Shown here in pieces: positions 18,198 to 50,006 of a stretch of DNA of 64,000 bases (within the stretch, counting starts at the first letter, position 1; the number at the start of each line of letters is the position of its first letter). Where the stretch lies: NCBI GenBank assembly GCA_951406725.2, contig OX597815.1, positions 39,308,001-39,372,000 of the forward strand, read 5' to 3'. A program made the translations under genes and the position numbers. Source of the DNA: Octopus vulgaris. Its lineage: Eukaryota. Under the pieces are notes generated by a model. That model had not been told where the DNA came from. It did not search any database and saw only the letters and a list, made by a program, of their open reading frames with translations.

Positions 18198-18598
18198 GGC
18201 GCAGGAGTGGCTGTGTGGTAAGTAGCTTGTTTACCAACCGCATGGTTCCGGGTTCAGTCCCACTGCGTGGCACCTTGGGCAAGTGTCTTCTACTATAGCC
18301 TCGGGCCGACCAAAGCCCTGTGAGTGGATTTGGTAGACGGAAACTGAAAGAAGCCCCCATTGTATATATGTATATATATATGAGTGTGTGTGTGTCTGTG
18401 TTTGTCCCCCTAGCATTGCTTAACAACCGATGCTGGTGTGTTTATGTCCCCGTTACTTAGCGGTTCGGCAAAAGAGACCGATAGAATAAGTACTGGGCTT
18501 ACAAGTCCCGGGATCGAGTTGCTCGATTAAAGGCGATGCTCCAGCATGGCCGCAGTCAAATGACTGAAACAAGTAAAAGAGTAAAAGAGTAAAGAGTA
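18198..18598 (+). mobile_element. SINE family B, full-length
   Basis: Colinear with 7272-7640; (AAAAGAGT)n tail. Confidence 0.85.
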
Positions 18599-30947: not shown

Positions 30948-31194
30948 TATATGTGCTATATTTTACACGTGACTGGAATTTTAGGTCATATTCTAGAGGG
31001 TTTAAAGGTTTAATTGTCTTTTTTTTATCTCTTTTAATCATTAGATATTTCGTAGTAATTTCCTAGTCTTGAATTCTACGAGCATGACCTTACAATGTAA
31101 CATGATGTAACGGTCATGAGCCCAAGGGAAGCGACACTTCAGTACTAGCACCATCAAGTTTACGTGAAACATATCTACGCATAAAACAATATTC

Positions 31195-31992
31195 TTTTTT
31201 TCTCTAGGCACAAGGCTTGAAATTTTTGGGGAGGGTGCCAGTCGATTAGATCAACCCCAGTACGCAACTGGTACTTAATTTATCGACTCCGACAGGATGA
31301 GAGACAAAGTGGACCTCGGCGAAATTTGAACTCAGAACGTAAAGACAGACGAAATACCGCTAAGCATTTCGCCCGGCGTACAAACGTTACTTATTTCTTT
31401 ATTGCCCACAAGAGGCTAAACCTAGAGGGGACAAACAAGGACAGACAAAGGAGTTAAGTCGATTACATCGACTCCAATGCGTAACTGGTACTTAATTTAT
31501 CGACCCCGAAAGGATGAAAGGCAAAGTCGACCTCGGTGGAATTTGAACTCACAACGGAGCGGCAGACGAAATACCTATTTCTTTACTACCCACAAGGGGC
31601 TAAACACAGAGAGAACAAACAAGGACAGACAAACGGATTAAGTCGATTATATCGACCTCAGTGCGTAACTGATACTTATTTAATCGACTCCGAAAGGATG
31701 AAAGGCAAAGTCGACCTCGGCGGAATTTAAACTCAGAACGTAGCGGCTGACGAAATACCTATTTCTTTATTACCCACAAGGGGCTAAACATAGAGGGGAC
31801 AAACAAGGACAGACATAGATATTAAGTCGTCTACATCGACCCCAGTGCGTAACTGGTACTTAATTTATCGACCCCGAAAGGATGAAATGCAAAGTCGACC
31901 TCGGCGAAATTTGAACTCACAACGTTGCGACAGACGATATACCGCTTAGCATTTCGCCCGGCGCGCTAACGTTTCTGCCAGCTTCGCCGCTT
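31195..31992 (-). mobile_element. Head-to-tail array of four SINE A units
   Basis: CGAAAGGATGAAAGGCAAAGTCGACCTCGG-like block recurs four times; junctions at ~31390, 31575 and 31759. Confidence 0.9.
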
Positions 31993-32269
31993 TCAAACAA
32001 TATTTTTTCTCTTCCAGGTCTTTGTTGGGGCATGCATGTATTTATCATGTATGTATTTATCTTACATATTAAGTCGTTTTACACACACATGCACACACAC
32101 ACATGCATACATACTAACATACATACACGCATACATATATATATAAAAGAAGAAAAAGAAAATGGAGACTGGAAAGTTAATAATTGTTTATTATTAACAG
32201 CGAATTAATCATCTTTACCTACAGCTGTTTCAGCTAATACTCCGTAAATATTAAGTAAATATTAAATTT

Positions 32270-32409
32270 ATATACATTATTTACATTTGACGGATATTTG
32301 TCCTCATCTTGTTTGTTAACACGTTTCGGCCGATATACCCTCCAGCCTTCATCAGTTGTCTTGGGGAAATTTCGAACCTGGGTTCTCATTCCTAAGGTAT
32401 TTTTCGATG

Positions 32410-32466
<57 letters not shown>

Positions 32467-32540
32467 GGGTCACTGCCAGGAATGGGACTCGGAACTTTGG
32501 GGTTTGTAGCCCGCGCTCTTAACCACTACGCCATATGCCC

Positions 32541-32610
<70 letters not shown>

Positions 32611-32614
32611 TTAA

Positions 32615-32708
<94 letters not shown>

Positions 32709-32715
32709 AATAATA

Positions 32716-32785
<70 letters not shown>

Positions 32786-32993
32786 TGATGATGATAATGA
32801 TAATAATAACATCGAAAAATACCTTAGGAATGAGAACCCAGGTTTGAAATTTCCCCAAGACACCTGATGAAGGCTGGAGGGTATGTCAGCCGATACGTTG
32901 TGTTAACAACAAACAAGATGAGGACAAATATCCGTCAAATGTAAATAATGTAAATAATGTACATAATTCCTCATCTCTTAAATGTATAACTGT
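32270..32993. mobile_element. Hammerhead-bearing element, locus 1: two inverted arms, tRNA-like head and AAT/ATT tracts
   Basis: Arm 32270-32410 (-) is the reverse complement of arm 32808-32950 (+); tRNA-like segment at 32467-32540 (-). Confidence 0.8.
32467..32540 (-). promoter_or_regulatory. tRNA-derived Pol III head of the hammerhead element
   Basis: GGGCATATGGCGTAGTGGTTAAGAGCGCGGGCTACAAACCCC... has A box TGGCGTAGTGG; the homologous 36630-36670 copy has B box GAGTTCGATTCC. Acceptor stem does not pair, so it is not a functional tRNA. Confidence 0.7.
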
Positions 32994-33914
32994 AAAAAAG
33001 GTCAGTTTGCAACTGTTCTCCTAACGACGTTCAGAAGTATTAAACGTCAAGTTGTTCATTTACTAAACACTCGACAGTCCTGATATTTGTATGAATCTTT
33101 GTTACTATAACTTATTAAAAGCTTCAGTGGCACCCATCACCATCATAGCAGCTGGCATAGACGACAAATGGTTCTCCTTAAATTCTAAAATCTATGATGC
33201 TGCTCCCCAATCATCATCATTGTTCGACCGTGGTCGAGACAATGGAATTTACTTGTAAATTCCATAGTCTTTTCAAATGGCTAATAATGTGTGCGCGCGC
33301 CACTGCTACACACATTGGAAAGCATTGTTCAACCAAGTACTAAAGAAGATCTTTCCTCTTCCATGAAACAAAGCTGTTCCCGCTGGACGTCAGCCCAGTA
33401 TTTCTAAGCTACGGACCGAGTGATTTATTGTAAGGTTATCTCCCTAGATAGATTGCCTTCACTACGGCTAAGGAGCCCTTTCTACCCCAAACTATCGGAT
33501 TTAGACTGGCTAGATGAGAATTTCAGCGCAATCAACAGACTTCTGAATGATAGACACGGAGTTCACAGAATAACCATAGACAATTCCTTATCACACACTC
33601 TAGCAATAGCGAGCTTTTCCGAATCAGGTTCAGTCCAATATTCGTAGACTGAAAATCAATAATGGATTGCAACAGCTTGATAGATCCAAATGAATGCATG
33701 ACATATGCCTGTTTTCAGGGATGCAAAAGATGGAAACTGAATGGACCTGGAAATATTGTTTCAATGTACCAGTCAAGTGAGCAGACGACACTTCTCTATT
33801 TAAAAAAAAATCAGTCAACAATAGTTTAAACTAGTTTAGAAGCGGGTTAAAGAGAAGAACGCAGACATATATACACACGCACGCGCATACACAAACACAC
33901 ACACACGTAATATC

Positions 33915-33976
<62 letters not shown>

Positions 33977-34072
33977 ACTTATAAATAAGGGCAAACGAAA
34001 AAATTTCTAATGCCAAATATGCCGAAATTGAACATATTGTCCATAACAATATAATTTTTCACAATATAAATT

Positions 34073-34165
<93 letters not shown>

Positions 34166-34171
34166 GTATAT

Positions 34172-34502
34172 GGTGGTGACCCCCTTCGGTCAGACACTGA
34201 CCATGGGTTTGCACCTAGAGAGTTACCCTCTGAGGCACAAGTCTGGGCAAGGTTGTTTTATGGAAGACCAGCAGTCGCCCATGCATCCCGGCCTCCCCTC
34301 TCCACGTCACCGTGTCGTCCAAGGGAAATGCAAGGGCCGATACAGCTTGGCACCTGTGACGTCGCAACAGCTGAGTGAACTGGAGCAACGTGAAATAAAG
34401 TGTCTTGCTCAAGAACACAACACGCACCCCGGTCCGGGATTCGAGCTCACAACCTCACGATCGTAAGCTCGACGCTCTAATCACTGAGCCACGTGCCTTC
34501 AC
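34172..34502 (-). mobile_element. SINE family C (tRNA head, V-domain-like segment)
   Basis: A box TGGCTCAGTGA, B box GAGCTCGAATCCC, then GTTGTGTTCTTGAGCAAGACACTT; inserted in TATG repeats. Confidence 0.75.
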
Positions 34503-35015
34503 TGTATGTATATAGACATATATTTTTTATTGTTTTACTTGTTTCAGTCATGTGACTGTGGCCATCATTTTATTTCATTACATATTATTTTATTTTATTT
34601 TATTTATTTATTTTTTTATTTTTTTATTTTTTATTTATTATTATAAAACACGAAAATAACAGTAAACGAAAGGAAGAGCAAAGTTTTTGCCCTCAAAACA
34701 TTCTTAATTTGCATAGCAATTTGGTTCTATAACAAACAAAATTGCACTCCTGTCGTAAGCAATGACCCTCATCCCATAGCAGACAGCCTATTCTCCGTAC
34801 AAACAGAAAGACAACACCAATCAAACTCCAAACATATTTTCTGCCCACATTCTTTACATAGTCTACACAGTATCATGTATCTAGGCGGAATGCCACCAAT
34901 GTGGTGCCCACAAATGCTTACAAAGAGAGAAAAATGATCAACTTTAGTTTTGAAAACTATAACAAACTCTATAGTTTGTCTTTACAAACATTTCAGTGTT
35001 ACAGCTTACCTCTGC

Positions 35016-35016
<1 letters not shown>

Positions 35017-35046
<30 letters not shown>

Positions 35047-35407
35047 TTCTTCTTCTTCTTCTTCTTCTTCTTCTTCTTCTTCTTCTTCTTCTTCTTCATT
35101 CTTCTTCTTCTTCTTCTTCTTCTTCTTCATTCTTCTTCTTCTTCACCTTCTTCTACTTCTTCGTCTTCTTTTTCTTCTTCTTCTTCTTCTTCTTCTTCTT
35201 CTTCTTCTTCATTCTTCTTCTTCTTCTTCTTCTTCTTCTTCTTCTTCTTCTTCTTCTTCTTCTTCTTCTTCTTCTTCTCTTTCTTCTTCTTCTTCTTCCT
35301 CCTTCACCTCCTTCTTCTTCCTCATTCTTCTTCTTCTTCTTCTTCTTCTACTTCTTCTTCTTCTTCTTCTTCTTCTCCTCCTCCTCCTCCTCCTCCTCCT
35401 CCTCCTC
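35017..35407. repeat. (CTT)n/(CCT)n microsatellite, ~390 bp
   Basis: Directly visible. Confidence 0.97.
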
Positions 35408-35904
35408 AAGAAGAAACTGTAGAACATTTCATATTATTTAATCCCGTCCCTTAAATATTCAGATTTCAAACCCCGCCGAGGGTCAATCTGGCTTTTTTCA
35501 TTCCTCGGGGCTTGTATATAATAAGAGGCATGCATTAGGATTGATTCAGTTCTTTCTCGCCAGCAGTATTGTCCTGGACCCACAGACTACTAAACACTGA
35601 CTCACTACAACCCAGTAGCTCAGTCCACCTAGCTGTTTACTTGAACTAGATAGTTTGACAGATCACGGTCATAAATCACCGTGGCGCTGTATGATTCATG
35701 TCATTCATTAGCTTGTAATCTTGTTGAGTTACCTCCTTTAATGGGCATAGCGGAGAAAGGAGGAGAAAGAGGAAGAGAGAGAAAGAGAGAGAGTGAGAGA
35801 GAGAGAGAAAGGGAAAGACGGACAGACAGACAGACAGACATACAGAGATGAACTGGTTCTAGTTGTTTTCATTCACAAAATATGCATTTTTAAAAAGAAA
35901 GTAA

Positions 35905-36109
35905 GGCGATGCTCCGGTATATGTACACACGTGACTTTGTTTACATTTCTGAAGATAACAGAAACCCTTTTCTCCCACCCCTAACCCTAACCCTAACCCT
36001 AACACAAACCCTAACCCTAATACAACCCCTAACCCTAAACTTAAACCCTTTTTTGAAATGTATCCGATACTTCCGGTACTTACACCGGTACATATACCGA
36101 AGGTTCACC
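35905..36109. mobile_element. Second MITE family with GG termini, 8-bp TSD and (CCCTAA)n core
   Basis: TIRs GGCGATGCTCCGGTATATGTAC / GTACATATACCGAAGGTTCACC; TSD GAAAGTAA on both sides. Confidence 0.75.
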
Positions 36110-36396
36110 GAAAGTAAAAAGAATCTGAAAATTGGCTATAATAATGTAGTCTTCCAGTTTCATTGCTATGAAGGTATGATGTAGTAAAGAAAAACTGGAG
36201 GAAAGAGTCACAGAGGTTTAAATATCGGAAAAAACTCTGTATTTTTAGCCAATAGCGAGACAGAAATTTTCTGCGGTCAACGGTGCGGTGTCAACTTGAA
36301 GTTTGTACCCTGTGAAATTTATAGTTTAGCGTCTGTAATATGACTTGTTCACTGTAGGTTTCTAAATAAACAGAAATACCGAATAAAATCAACATA

Positions 36397-36861
36397 TATC
36401 ATCTTACTGTTCAATATTTAAGAGATGAGGAATTATAAACATTATTATACATTATTTACATTTGACTGATATTTGTCTTCATCTTGTTTGTTGTTAACAC
36501 AACGTTTCGGCCGATATACCCTCCAGCCTTCATCAGGTGTCTTGGGGAAATTTCGAACTTGGGTTCTCATTCCCAAGGTATTTTTCAATGTTATTATTAT
36601 TGTTGTTGTTGTTGTTGTTGTTGTTGTTCAGGTCACTGCCTGGAATCGAACTCGGAATCTTGGAGGTTAGTGACCTGAATAATAATAACATAGAAAAATA
36701 CCTTAGGAATGGGAACCAGGTTCGAAATTTCCCCAAGACACCTAATGAAGGCTGGAGGGTATATCGGTCGAAACGTTGTGTTAACAACAAACAAGATGAG
36801 GACAAATATCCGCCAAATGTAAATAATGTAAATAATGTAAATAATGTATCATCTTACTGTT
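36397..36861. mobile_element. Hammerhead-bearing element, locus 2: inverted arms with flanking direct repeat
   Basis: Minus arm 36410-36670 and plus arm 36669-36848; TATCATCTTACTGTT at 36397-36411 and 36847-36861. Confidence 0.85.
36496..36541 (-). ncRNA. Minimal type I hammerhead ribozyme motif, intact core
   Basis: GACAC-CUGAUGA-A-GGCUG-gaggguauau-CGGCC-GAAAC-GUU-GUGUU: stem I GACAC/GUGUU, stem II GGCUG/CGGCC, palindromic AACGUU in place of stem III. Variant copies at 32318-32360, 32859-32904, 36737-36782 and 40100-40146. Confidence 0.75.
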
Positions 36862-40019: not shown

Positions 40020-40320
40020 CACTATTCTATATTTTTGAGATGAGGAGTTATGTATATTATTTACAATGGACGGATAGGTGTCCTCACCTTGTTTGTTGTT
40101 ACTACAATATTTCGGCTGATGTACTCTCCAGCTTTCACTAGGTGTTCTGGTGGAATTTCGAACCCAACCCTTTATTTGTCTAATGGAGTGCTCTGTTCTC
40201 ATTCCCAAGGGATTCATTTTTTGCTGATGTTATAAACATCAGCAAAAAAGAATACCTTAGGAATGAGAACAGAGTACCTAACTAGTCAAATACAGGGTTG
40301 GGTTAGAAATTCCACCAGAA
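40020..40320. mobile_element. Diverged relative of the hammerhead element, folded back on itself
   Basis: Shares GAGATGAGGA, GACGGATA, TCCTCA and TTCTCATTCC blocks; 40145-40320 is an inverted repeat centred on GCTGATGTTATAAACATCAGC. Confidence 0.7.
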
Positions 40321-49851: not shown

Positions 49852-50006
49852 AATGTTATTTTGTATAGTTCCATATTTAAGAGAAGAGGAATTAGGTACA
49901 TTATTTACATTATTTACATTTGACGGATATTTGTGGTGTTAAGAACAAAAAAGATGAGGACAAATATCCGTCAAATGTAAATATTGTAAATAATGTTATT
50001 TTGTAT
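49852..50006. mobile_element. Minimal inverted-arm remnant of the hammerhead element
   Basis: ACATTTGACGGATATTTG / CAAATATCCGTCAAATGT arms; flanking repeat AATGTTATTTTGTAT at 49852-49866 and 49992-50006; ribozyme core absent. Confidence 0.75.

What the first reader, a model, noticed from the sequence alone, without database searches (positions are those of the whole stretch)
32270..36861. Candidate Penelope-dependent ribozyme SINE: tRNA head + (AAT)n + minimal hammerhead
Seen: reading the minus strand from 32540 gives a tRNA-like head with A box, an AAT tract and a ~190-nt tail containing CUGAUGA-A-stem II-GAAAC-GU. Head remnants are attached to the same tail in two more arms (36630-36670 and 36669-36680). 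Five motif copies exist; 36496-36541 has an intact core. Stem II variants keep pairing (GGCUG with CGGCC, CAGCC or CGGUC). Stem III is replaced by the palindrome AACGUU. Knowledge: such minimal type I hammerheads typify Penelope terminal repeats and are thought to cleave as dimers; schistosome Sm-alpha is a precedent for tRNA head plus hammerhead. Inference: a non-coding, Pol III-driven, self-cleaving retroposon that uses a PLE rather than a LINE. I know of no description of this in cephalopods but could not search.
Basis: partly seen in the sequence, partly recalled or inferred. Interest (0 to 1): 0.85.

Follow-up and report, generated by a model that had tools for sequence, protein, structure and literature searches.

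The report
Penelope retroelement with tRNA-derived promoter head
This SINE-like repeat is the start and terminal repeat of a decayed protein-coding Penelope-like retrotransposon, and most short copies begin right at its tRNA-like head, so one element likely uses an RNA polymerase III promoter and likely spins off tens of thousands of SINE-like copies of its own front end.

Summary
In detail: tRNA-like head, (AAT)n tract, minimal type I hammerhead, five motif copies. The reading as a non-coding SINE that borrowed a tail does not. The whole unit, head included, is the pseudo-LTR of a Penelope/Poseidon-type element in the same genome. It follows the ORF's stop (14 of 20 loci picked on RT alone). 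It also precedes the ORF, and the hammerhead lies inside the first codons of a reading frame that runs on into the ~840-codon RT-endonuclease ORF. Insertions carry the PLE signature: 73 of 77 inverted pairs have one long and one short 3' end about 30 nt apart, with 12-16-nt target duplications. Yet 36 of 39 copies with a full head begin 0-9 nt before the tRNA's first base, so the head is a start site, not random truncation. The family ORF has no T4 run on the sense strand (3-4 expected, P 0.01-0.02), which fits Pol III. A 3-nt deletion recurs at the predicted cut site (25 of 222 arms). Pol III use and cleavage were not shown, and no intact copy was found.

The parts
32466..32540 (-). Complete tRNA-like head (A box 32533-32523; B box decayed); the 5' end of the family's repeat unit and likely Pol III promoter
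   Evidence: best match among 30 distinct tRNA sequences of this genome is tRNA-Arg; family 5' ends cluster here
32410..32465 (-). (AAT/AAC)n tract between head and start codon
32268..32409 (-). Arm A tail (start of PLE ORF, ATG at 32389); hammerhead 32318-32360 with the recurrent 3-nt deletion at the cut site; ends at the inner 3' site
32541..32808 (.). Alternating (AAT)n/(ATT)n block joining arms A and B (fold-back junction inside the tract)
32809..32992 (+). Arm B tail: ATG at 32830, frame homologous to the PLE N-terminus, hammerhead 32859-32904 (core broken), ends at the outer 3' site with the ~30-nt PLE 'tail'
36409..36677 (-). Arm C: head remnant 36629-36677, tract, tail to the outer site
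36496..36541 (-). Intact minimal type I hammerhead: 5-bp stem I, extra A after A9, 5-6-bp stem II, palindrome instead of stem III; predicted cut between 36501 and 36500
   Evidence: motif definition from PMC4209133
36669..36848 (+). Arm D: 10-nt head remnant, tract, tail to the inner site; hammerhead 36737-36782 with G5 changed
36398..36411 (+). Target-site duplication of the C/D insertion (14 nt; partner 36848-36861)
40025..40320 (-). Copy of an older subfamily (27 extra nt in frame after the ATG) with inverted partial arm 40221-40320; hammerhead 40101-40146, core broken
49852..50006 (.). Short inverted pair of tail ends (one outer, one inner; hammerhead core not included) with a 15-nt target duplication at 49852-49866 and 49992-50006

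Best explanation
The repeat is the pseudo-LTR and 5' end of a decayed Penelope/Poseidon-type retrotransposon whose unit begins with a tRNA-derived head, and the short copies are likely reverse transcripts of RNAs that likely start at that head from a Pol III promoter. Unit order (shown): head, (AAT)n, ATG, minimal hammerhead within about codons 10-25, two 3' end sites about 30 nt apart within about codons 38-51, rest of the RT-endonuclease ORF, stop, about 30 nt, next head. Mechanism (inferred from the anatomy and from the in vitro work on the anole element PAc): the element's protein nicks AT-rich DNA with a 12-16-nt stagger and starts reverse transcription inside the RNA at these sites. Priming at the sites nearest the RNA's 5' end would copy only head, tract and hammerhead, giving a SINE-shaped unit as a by-product. 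Priming in the downstream repeat would copy the ORF end, usually 5'-truncated. Use of both sites on the two target strands, joined by fold-back or template jumps, would give the inverted pairs. The hammerhead likely cut some RNAs in vivo, but cutting is probably not needed for copying. Whether the ORF mRNA itself was made by Pol III is open (about 45%).
For: ORF end runs into the unit: tail downstream in 30 of 30 loci picked with ORF end + head (the head was in the query, the tail was not), and head after the ORF in 14 of 20 loci picked on RT protein alone; 1 more has the tail only and 5 break off earlier. Unit runs into ORF start: L146, L149, and tail then ORF in 19 of 20 loci picked on the ORF start, 4 of them with a head in the same direction. 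The frame from the unit's ATG aligns with the N-terminus of a full-length 847-aa relative, 40% over 52 aa, E 3e-8; subfamily indels in the tail keep the frame (27 nt, 9-nt repeats). Majority of 22 long copies gives a 793-codon open frame after the tail; RVT_1 E 1e-10; 2989 homologues at E<=0.001 among 7999 scored. PLE signature: 3' ends bimodal, 107 inner, 97 outer, 8 between; 73 of 77 inverted pairs have one of each, none two outer; shared flank string of 12 nt or more in 49 of 77 against 2 of 300 mismatched pairs; matches PMC8557442 and PMC11167929. Defined start: 36 of 39 head-picked loci begin 0-9 nt before G1 (binomial P about 1e-43 at a 5% expectation); many keep 2-7 nt of the element's own leader. 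T4 runs: 0 in the ORF and unit, expected 3.1-4.6, P 0.008-0.021; T2 and T3 normal; a Neptune-type ORF of this genome has 9; none in older-subfamily copies up to 1849 nt at 85% identity. Cut-site deletion: 25 of 222 arms, both subfamilies, absent from the partner arm in 8 of 10 loci.
Against: No intact ORF among 149 scored candidates (longest open frame 572 aa) and no single complete head-ORF-head copy was seen; the map is built from overlapping copies. RNA-seq reads of a related species label cover both directions equally and show no pile-up of ends at the head or the cut site. In those reads depth only doubles from ORF end to head, so ORF-linked copies are commoner than the head-picked sample suggests; that sample favours the youngest copies, and the older subfamily runs into the ORF more often. 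The T4 test is one family, and G4 runs are also absent (0 against 2.8). Rfam and ARAGORN do not call the head a tRNA. 5' truncations are not enriched at the cut site. The core is intact in only 38 of 103 arms and no more conserved than its flanks. The GIY-YIG Pfam model does not hit the C-terminal piece.
Confidence: 0.8

Rival explanations
1. A true independent SINE lineage: head-start units became their own source genes, transcribed by Pol III and copied in trans by the PLE protein.
For: 92% of head-picked copies start at the head. Solo and ORF-linked copies differ in a few variant frequencies, e.g. tail position 127, 14 of 99 against 1 of 58. Two loci share one junction that joins ORF position 234 to the head, so deleted derivatives did multiply. 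The unit has no T4 terminator.
Against: No fixed diagnostic change separates solo from ORF-linked copies. The differences are uncorrected tests over about 200 columns, the strongest at a CpG and confounded by how the samples were picked. Solo copies keep the leader of the ORF-linked context and the reading frame. Internal priming on the full-length RNA explains the same units without a separate source.
Confidence: 0.35
2. The head is a passenger (an old SINE or tRNA piece captured in the pseudo-LTR); the element is made by Pol II or read-through, and ends cluster at the head because a small hairpin at -7 to +5 stops or folds back the cDNA.
For: Several inverted junctions are symmetrical at this hairpin. 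Drosophila Penelope has a LINE-like internal promoter (PMC2377424, abstract and passages). No discrete RNA is seen.
Against: Copies without an inverted arm (6 of 38) and copies joined to distant parts of the tail end in the same 10 nt. A structural stall is expected at the 3' side of the head, not after it has been copied. A and B boxes are kept in both subfamilies. The T4-free sense strand is unexplained.
Confidence: 0.15
3. The deletions at the cut site come from reverse-transcriptase slippage at the end of stem I, and the hammerhead never cut.
For: A 2-nt microhomology spans the deletion. The two windows just 3' of it are also raised (22 of 221, 19 of 222). In PAc no RNA ends were found at the cut and core mutants still insert.
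Against: Six other 3-nt microhomology sites in the tail, two of them perfect tandem repeats, show 0-6 deletions against 25. The site is exactly the predicted scissile bond. Core and stem II are unchanged between subfamilies while loop II differs.
Confidence: 0.4

Closest known systems
Penelope/Poseidon clade PLEs, especially PAc (Poseidon of Anolis; PMC11167929, parts 1-2 of 4 read)
   Same: RT then C-terminal endonuclease region, no extra linker zinc finger; pseudo-LTR overlaps the ORF start; hammerhead within the first codons; two 3' sites 30-40 nt apart in an AC-rich stem-loop; AT-rich targets; inverted 5' arms
   Different: No tRNA-like head is described there in the parts read; here the unit starts with one, 5' ends pile up at it, and the sense strand lacks T4
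Minimal type I hammerheads of metazoan PLEs (PMC4209133, parts 1-2 of 4 read)
   Same: Extra base between 9 and 10.1, G10.1-C11.1, short stem I, palindrome in place of stem III, mostly solo copies, some in close inverted pairs
   Different: Nothing in the motif; the upstream tRNA head is the difference
Schistosome Sm-alpha / Sj-alpha SINE-like elements (seen only in review passages, PMC6765202; original not held)
   Same: Pol III-type promoter followed by a hammerhead in a short repeat
   Different: Tandem multimers cut to monomers, canonical hammerhead, no autonomous partner named in the passages; here inverted pairs and an identified parent that contains the whole unit
Non-LTR retrozymes (PMC7229834 passages; bioRxiv 10.64898/2026.07.22.740005 part 1 and passages)
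   Same: Non-autonomous hammerhead repeats related to PLE pseudo-LTRs
   Different: Head-to-tail tandem arrays; the bioRxiv main text has no occurrence of tRNA or Pol III; here dispersed, inverted, tRNA-headed
TRIMp3: Cassandra, Helenus, Ajax (PMC10886601, passages)
   Same: Small-RNA-derived Pol III promoter inside a terminal repeat
   Different: Non-autonomous LTR elements; the paper argues their autonomous partners must use Pol II and not share the repeat. Here the coding element itself carries the head
Octopus tRNA SINE OR2 (named in PMC4758252 and PMC5804259, passages; original not held); OK and OR1 recalled
   Same: tRNA-derived head, similar size (recalled)
   Different: OR2 is listed as a CORE SINE; here the head is followed by (AAT)n and PLE coding sequence. 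Their sequences could not be compared

Membership tests
Penelope-like element (EN+, Penelope/Poseidon) | Single ORF with RT | tested here: met
   RVT_1 E 1.4e-10; 793-codon majority frame; homologues 55-68% identical
Penelope-like element (EN+, Penelope/Poseidon) | C-terminal GIY-YIG endonuclease with CCHH motif | tested here: inconclusive
   Motif-like residues are visible and 3 of 120 listed homologues carry PF01541, but Pfam does not hit the piece tested
Penelope-like element (EN+, Penelope/Poseidon) | No extra zinc finger between RT and EN (unlike Neptune/Nematis) | tested here: met
   Absent in L145, present in the other family L061; no tree was built
Penelope-like element (EN+, Penelope/Poseidon) | Pseudo-LTRs from partial tandems, inverted 5' arms | tested here: met
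Penelope-like element (EN+, Penelope/Poseidon) | 30-40-nt tail on one end only | tested here: met
   73 of 77 pairs; bimodal ends
Minimal type I hammerhead | Core residues, stems I and II, palindromic stem III remnant | tested here: met
   Rfam gives no hit
Minimal type I hammerhead | Self-cleavage (as dimer or protein-assisted) | not testable with these tools
   Indirect only: deletion hot spot; no RNA ends seen
tRNA SINE | tRNA-derived head with A and B boxes | tested here: met
   Colinear over 70 nt with tRNA-Arg(TCG) of this genome, score 64 against 61 and 58 for the next isotypes in an incomplete sample; not called by Rfam or ARAGORN
tRNA SINE | RNA starts at the head | tested here: met
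   By the 5' ends of genomic copies, 36 of 39; not by RNA
tRNA SINE | Transcribed by Pol III | not testable with these tools
   Indirect: T4-free sense strand
tRNA SINE | Head independent of the partner element; only the 3' tail shared | tested here: not met
   The head is part of the autonomous element
tRNA SINE | Short copies form their own source lineage | tested here: inconclusive
Non-LTR retrozyme | Head-to-tail tandem arrays with a hammerhead in each unit | tested here: not met
   Copies are single or inverted pairs; no such array in the window

The most novel reading that the evidence does not exclude
An autonomous, protein-coding Penelope-like retrotransposon transcribed end to end by RNA polymerase III from a captured tRNA-Arg promoter. 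Its 2.5-kb ORF is purged of T4 terminators, it is translated from an uncapped RNA behind an (AAT/AAC)n leader, it makes a SINE-like family directly from its own mRNA by internal priming, and its copies record in vivo hammerhead cleavage as a recurrent scar.
Probability: 0.4. Interest if true: 0.88.

Novelty: new variant of a known kind. Interest (0 to 1): 0.72.

Why it matters
It shows a route to a SINE-like family that needs no fusion of a tRNA gene with a foreign tail: a promoter inside a PLE repeat plus internal priming yields the short unit directly. A Pol III-made retroelement mRNA would go against the stated view that coding retrotransposons need Pol II (PMC10886601, passages). With roughly 30,000-180,000 arms, the family is a large fossil record of PLE start sites, priming sites, target stagger and possibly ribozyme cutting, all open questions for this class. 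It also warns that a tRNA-headed repeat annotated as a SINE may be a PLE terminal repeat.

Tried and rejected
The young Neptune-type family found by GIY-YIG search is not the partner: no similarity to the unit in 30 loci. Stem II covariation as evidence of function: rejected. Enrichment of 5' ends at the cut site: not seen. Identity with OR2: unlikely, since OR2 is listed as a CORE SINE; the original paper is not held. Rfam gave only microsatellite hits in the window. No solved-structure match at E<=0.01. No RNA holder listed in the run search. A search for a second Poseidon-type family as a T4 control returned mainly loci already known for this family, and the rest were not fetched. Earlier findings: three look-ups, nothing. 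Literature: ten searches listed no paper describing a tRNA-headed PLE or this family. Repbase, Dfam, SINEBase, subscription journals and all supplements were not seen, so a database entry may exist. The random sample is 200 kb only.
Full report
Observation. The region holds two inverted pairs of one repeat: arm A (32268-32540, minus) with arm B (32809-32992, plus), and arm C (36409-36677, minus) with arm D (36669-36848, plus). A fifth, older copy lies at 40025-40214 and a short pair at 49867-49994. The unit reads: 75-nt head with A and B boxes, (AAT/AAC)n, then a tail with a minimal type I hammerhead. The motif has the features listed for PLE hammerheads in PMC4209133 (parts 1-2 read). Only arm C has an intact core. 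The repeat is abundant: 6 arms in 20 arbitrary 10-kb stretches, 30 per Mb (95% range 11-65), or about 30,000-180,000 arms in 2.8 Gb. DNA or unlabelled runs of six organism labels hold it.

The parent element. Upstream of the head, several loci carry the coding end of a PLE protein. With ORF end plus head as query, the tail followed in 30 of 30 loci, the query's own included. With the RT region alone as query (153 matches, 20 fetched), the head followed the ORF in 14 of 20, the tail alone in 1, and 5 broke off earlier. The unit also stands in front of the ORF. In L146 and L149 the tail runs on into it, and so it does in 19 of 20 loci picked on the ORF start (20 of 40 matches fetched), 4 with a head in the same direction. 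From an ATG about 20 nt after the tract, one frame passes through the hammerhead and tail into the ORF and aligns with the N-terminus of an 847-aa database relative (40% over 52 aa, E 3e-8). The majority of 22 long copies gives 793 open codons after the tail start, about 840 in all. All copies seen are decayed, about 4-8% from the majority. So the 'SINE' is the pseudo-LTR, and its tail is coding sequence, as in the anole element PAc (PMC11167929).

Integration signature. 3' ends fall at two sites about 30 nt apart (107 inner, 97 outer, 8 between, among 260 arms, part of them picked on the tail). Of 77 inverted pairs, 73 have one of each, 4 two inner, none two outer. Flanks share 12 nt or more (one mismatch allowed) in 49 of 77, one of them a TA run, against 2 of 300 mismatched pairs. 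In the window, C/D and the 49867 pair have 14- and 15-nt duplications; A/B has none that I could find. This is the pattern given for PLEs in PMC8557442 (passages), and in PAc the two sites are RT start sites. The inner site lies in an AC-rich loop of a predicted hairpin, which is weak against shuffles (z -1.3).

The head as a start site. Among loci picked only for a full head (40 loci; 38 fetched, the query's own left out, one already held and ORF-linked), 36 of 39 begin 0-9 nt before the first base of the head, often keeping 2-7 nt of the element's own leader; 32 of 38 have an inverted arm upstream. ORF-linked copies, by contrast, run on for tens to over a thousand bases. Against this, the sample favours young copies, the older subfamily enters the ORF more often, and RNA-seq depth only doubles across the boundary. 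The head aligns best with tRNA-Arg among 30 distinct tRNAs of this genome, a sample that lacks many isotypes; Rfam and ARAGORN do not call it. Pol III stops at runs of four or more T (established knowledge). The sense strand of the family has none in 2635 nt, with 3.1-4.6 expected under four shuffles (P 0.008-0.021), while T2 and T3 are normal and a Neptune-type ORF of equal T content has 9. G4 runs are also missing (0 against 2.8), and it is one family, so this is suggestive only.

The hammerhead. Between the two subfamilies the core and stem II are unchanged, though protein constraint could contribute. A 3-nt deletion at the predicted cut occurs in 25 of 222 arms against 0-6 at six other microhomology sites. 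It occurs in both subfamilies and is absent from the partner arm in 8 of 10 loci, so it arises anew. Any deletion over that 5-nt window: 39 of 218, against 0-9 in 15 of 17 other windows and 19-22 in the two just downstream. Two template jumps also land there. This is what an RT jump across a cut RNA would leave, but slippage at stem I is not excluded, 5' truncations are not enriched there, and RNA reads show no ends.

Mechanism. Shown: unit order, coding tail, two 3' sites, target duplications, clustering of 5' ends. Inferred: Pol III starts RNAs at the head; the element's RT primes internally. Priming at the first sites gives the short unit and priming in the next repeat gives ORF-bearing copies; fold-back or jumps join two products into inverted pairs. 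It works like a SINE in promoter and size but fails one defining test, since its head belongs to the partner. Whether short units also became sources, and whether the mRNA was a Pol III product, is open.

Novelty. The PLE architecture and the hammerhead are known. A tRNA-derived head at the start of a coding PLE was not found in ten literature searches; repeat databases and supplements were not seen. Nearest ideas are Sm-alpha (review passages), TRIMp3 (passages) and retrozymes. Drosophila Penelope has a LINE-like internal promoter. Verdict: new variant of a known kind, interest 0.72.

Noticed in passing
G000, L061-L066 (e.g. L061:1245-3587): A young Neptune-type PLE family with many 781-codon open frames, an upstream overlapping ORF, a variant hammerhead-like motif near its 3' end and insertion at (TA)n; possibly still active.
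   Followed up: partly
L274 and L284 (ORF position 234 joined to the head leader); also L273, L277: Internally deleted mini-elements (tail, first 230-260 nt of ORF, head, tail); two loci share the same junction, so a deleted derivative multiplied.
   Followed up: partly
L271-L290: Many copies stop 160-460 nt into the ORF and are followed by another tail, suggesting template jumps onto short RNAs ending in that zone.
   Followed up: no
window 31171-31943: Three to four head-to-tail copies of a 184-bp unit from another abundant repeat family.
   Followed up: no
L034 downstream of the endonuclease end; L051 likewise: Further PLE families of this genome with their own minimal hammerhead-like motifs.
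   Followed up: no
L070, L074, L091 (older subfamily, just after the head): The bases after the older head faintly resemble those after the head of another abundant SINE family (e.g. window 18214-18300), hinting that the head was captured from a SINE rather than a tRNA gene.
   Followed up: no
window 34170-34500: A different tRNA-headed repeat on the minus strand, ending in microsatellite.
   Followed up: no
window 35979-36038: About ten degenerate CCCTAA units at the edge of another repeat.
   Followed up: no
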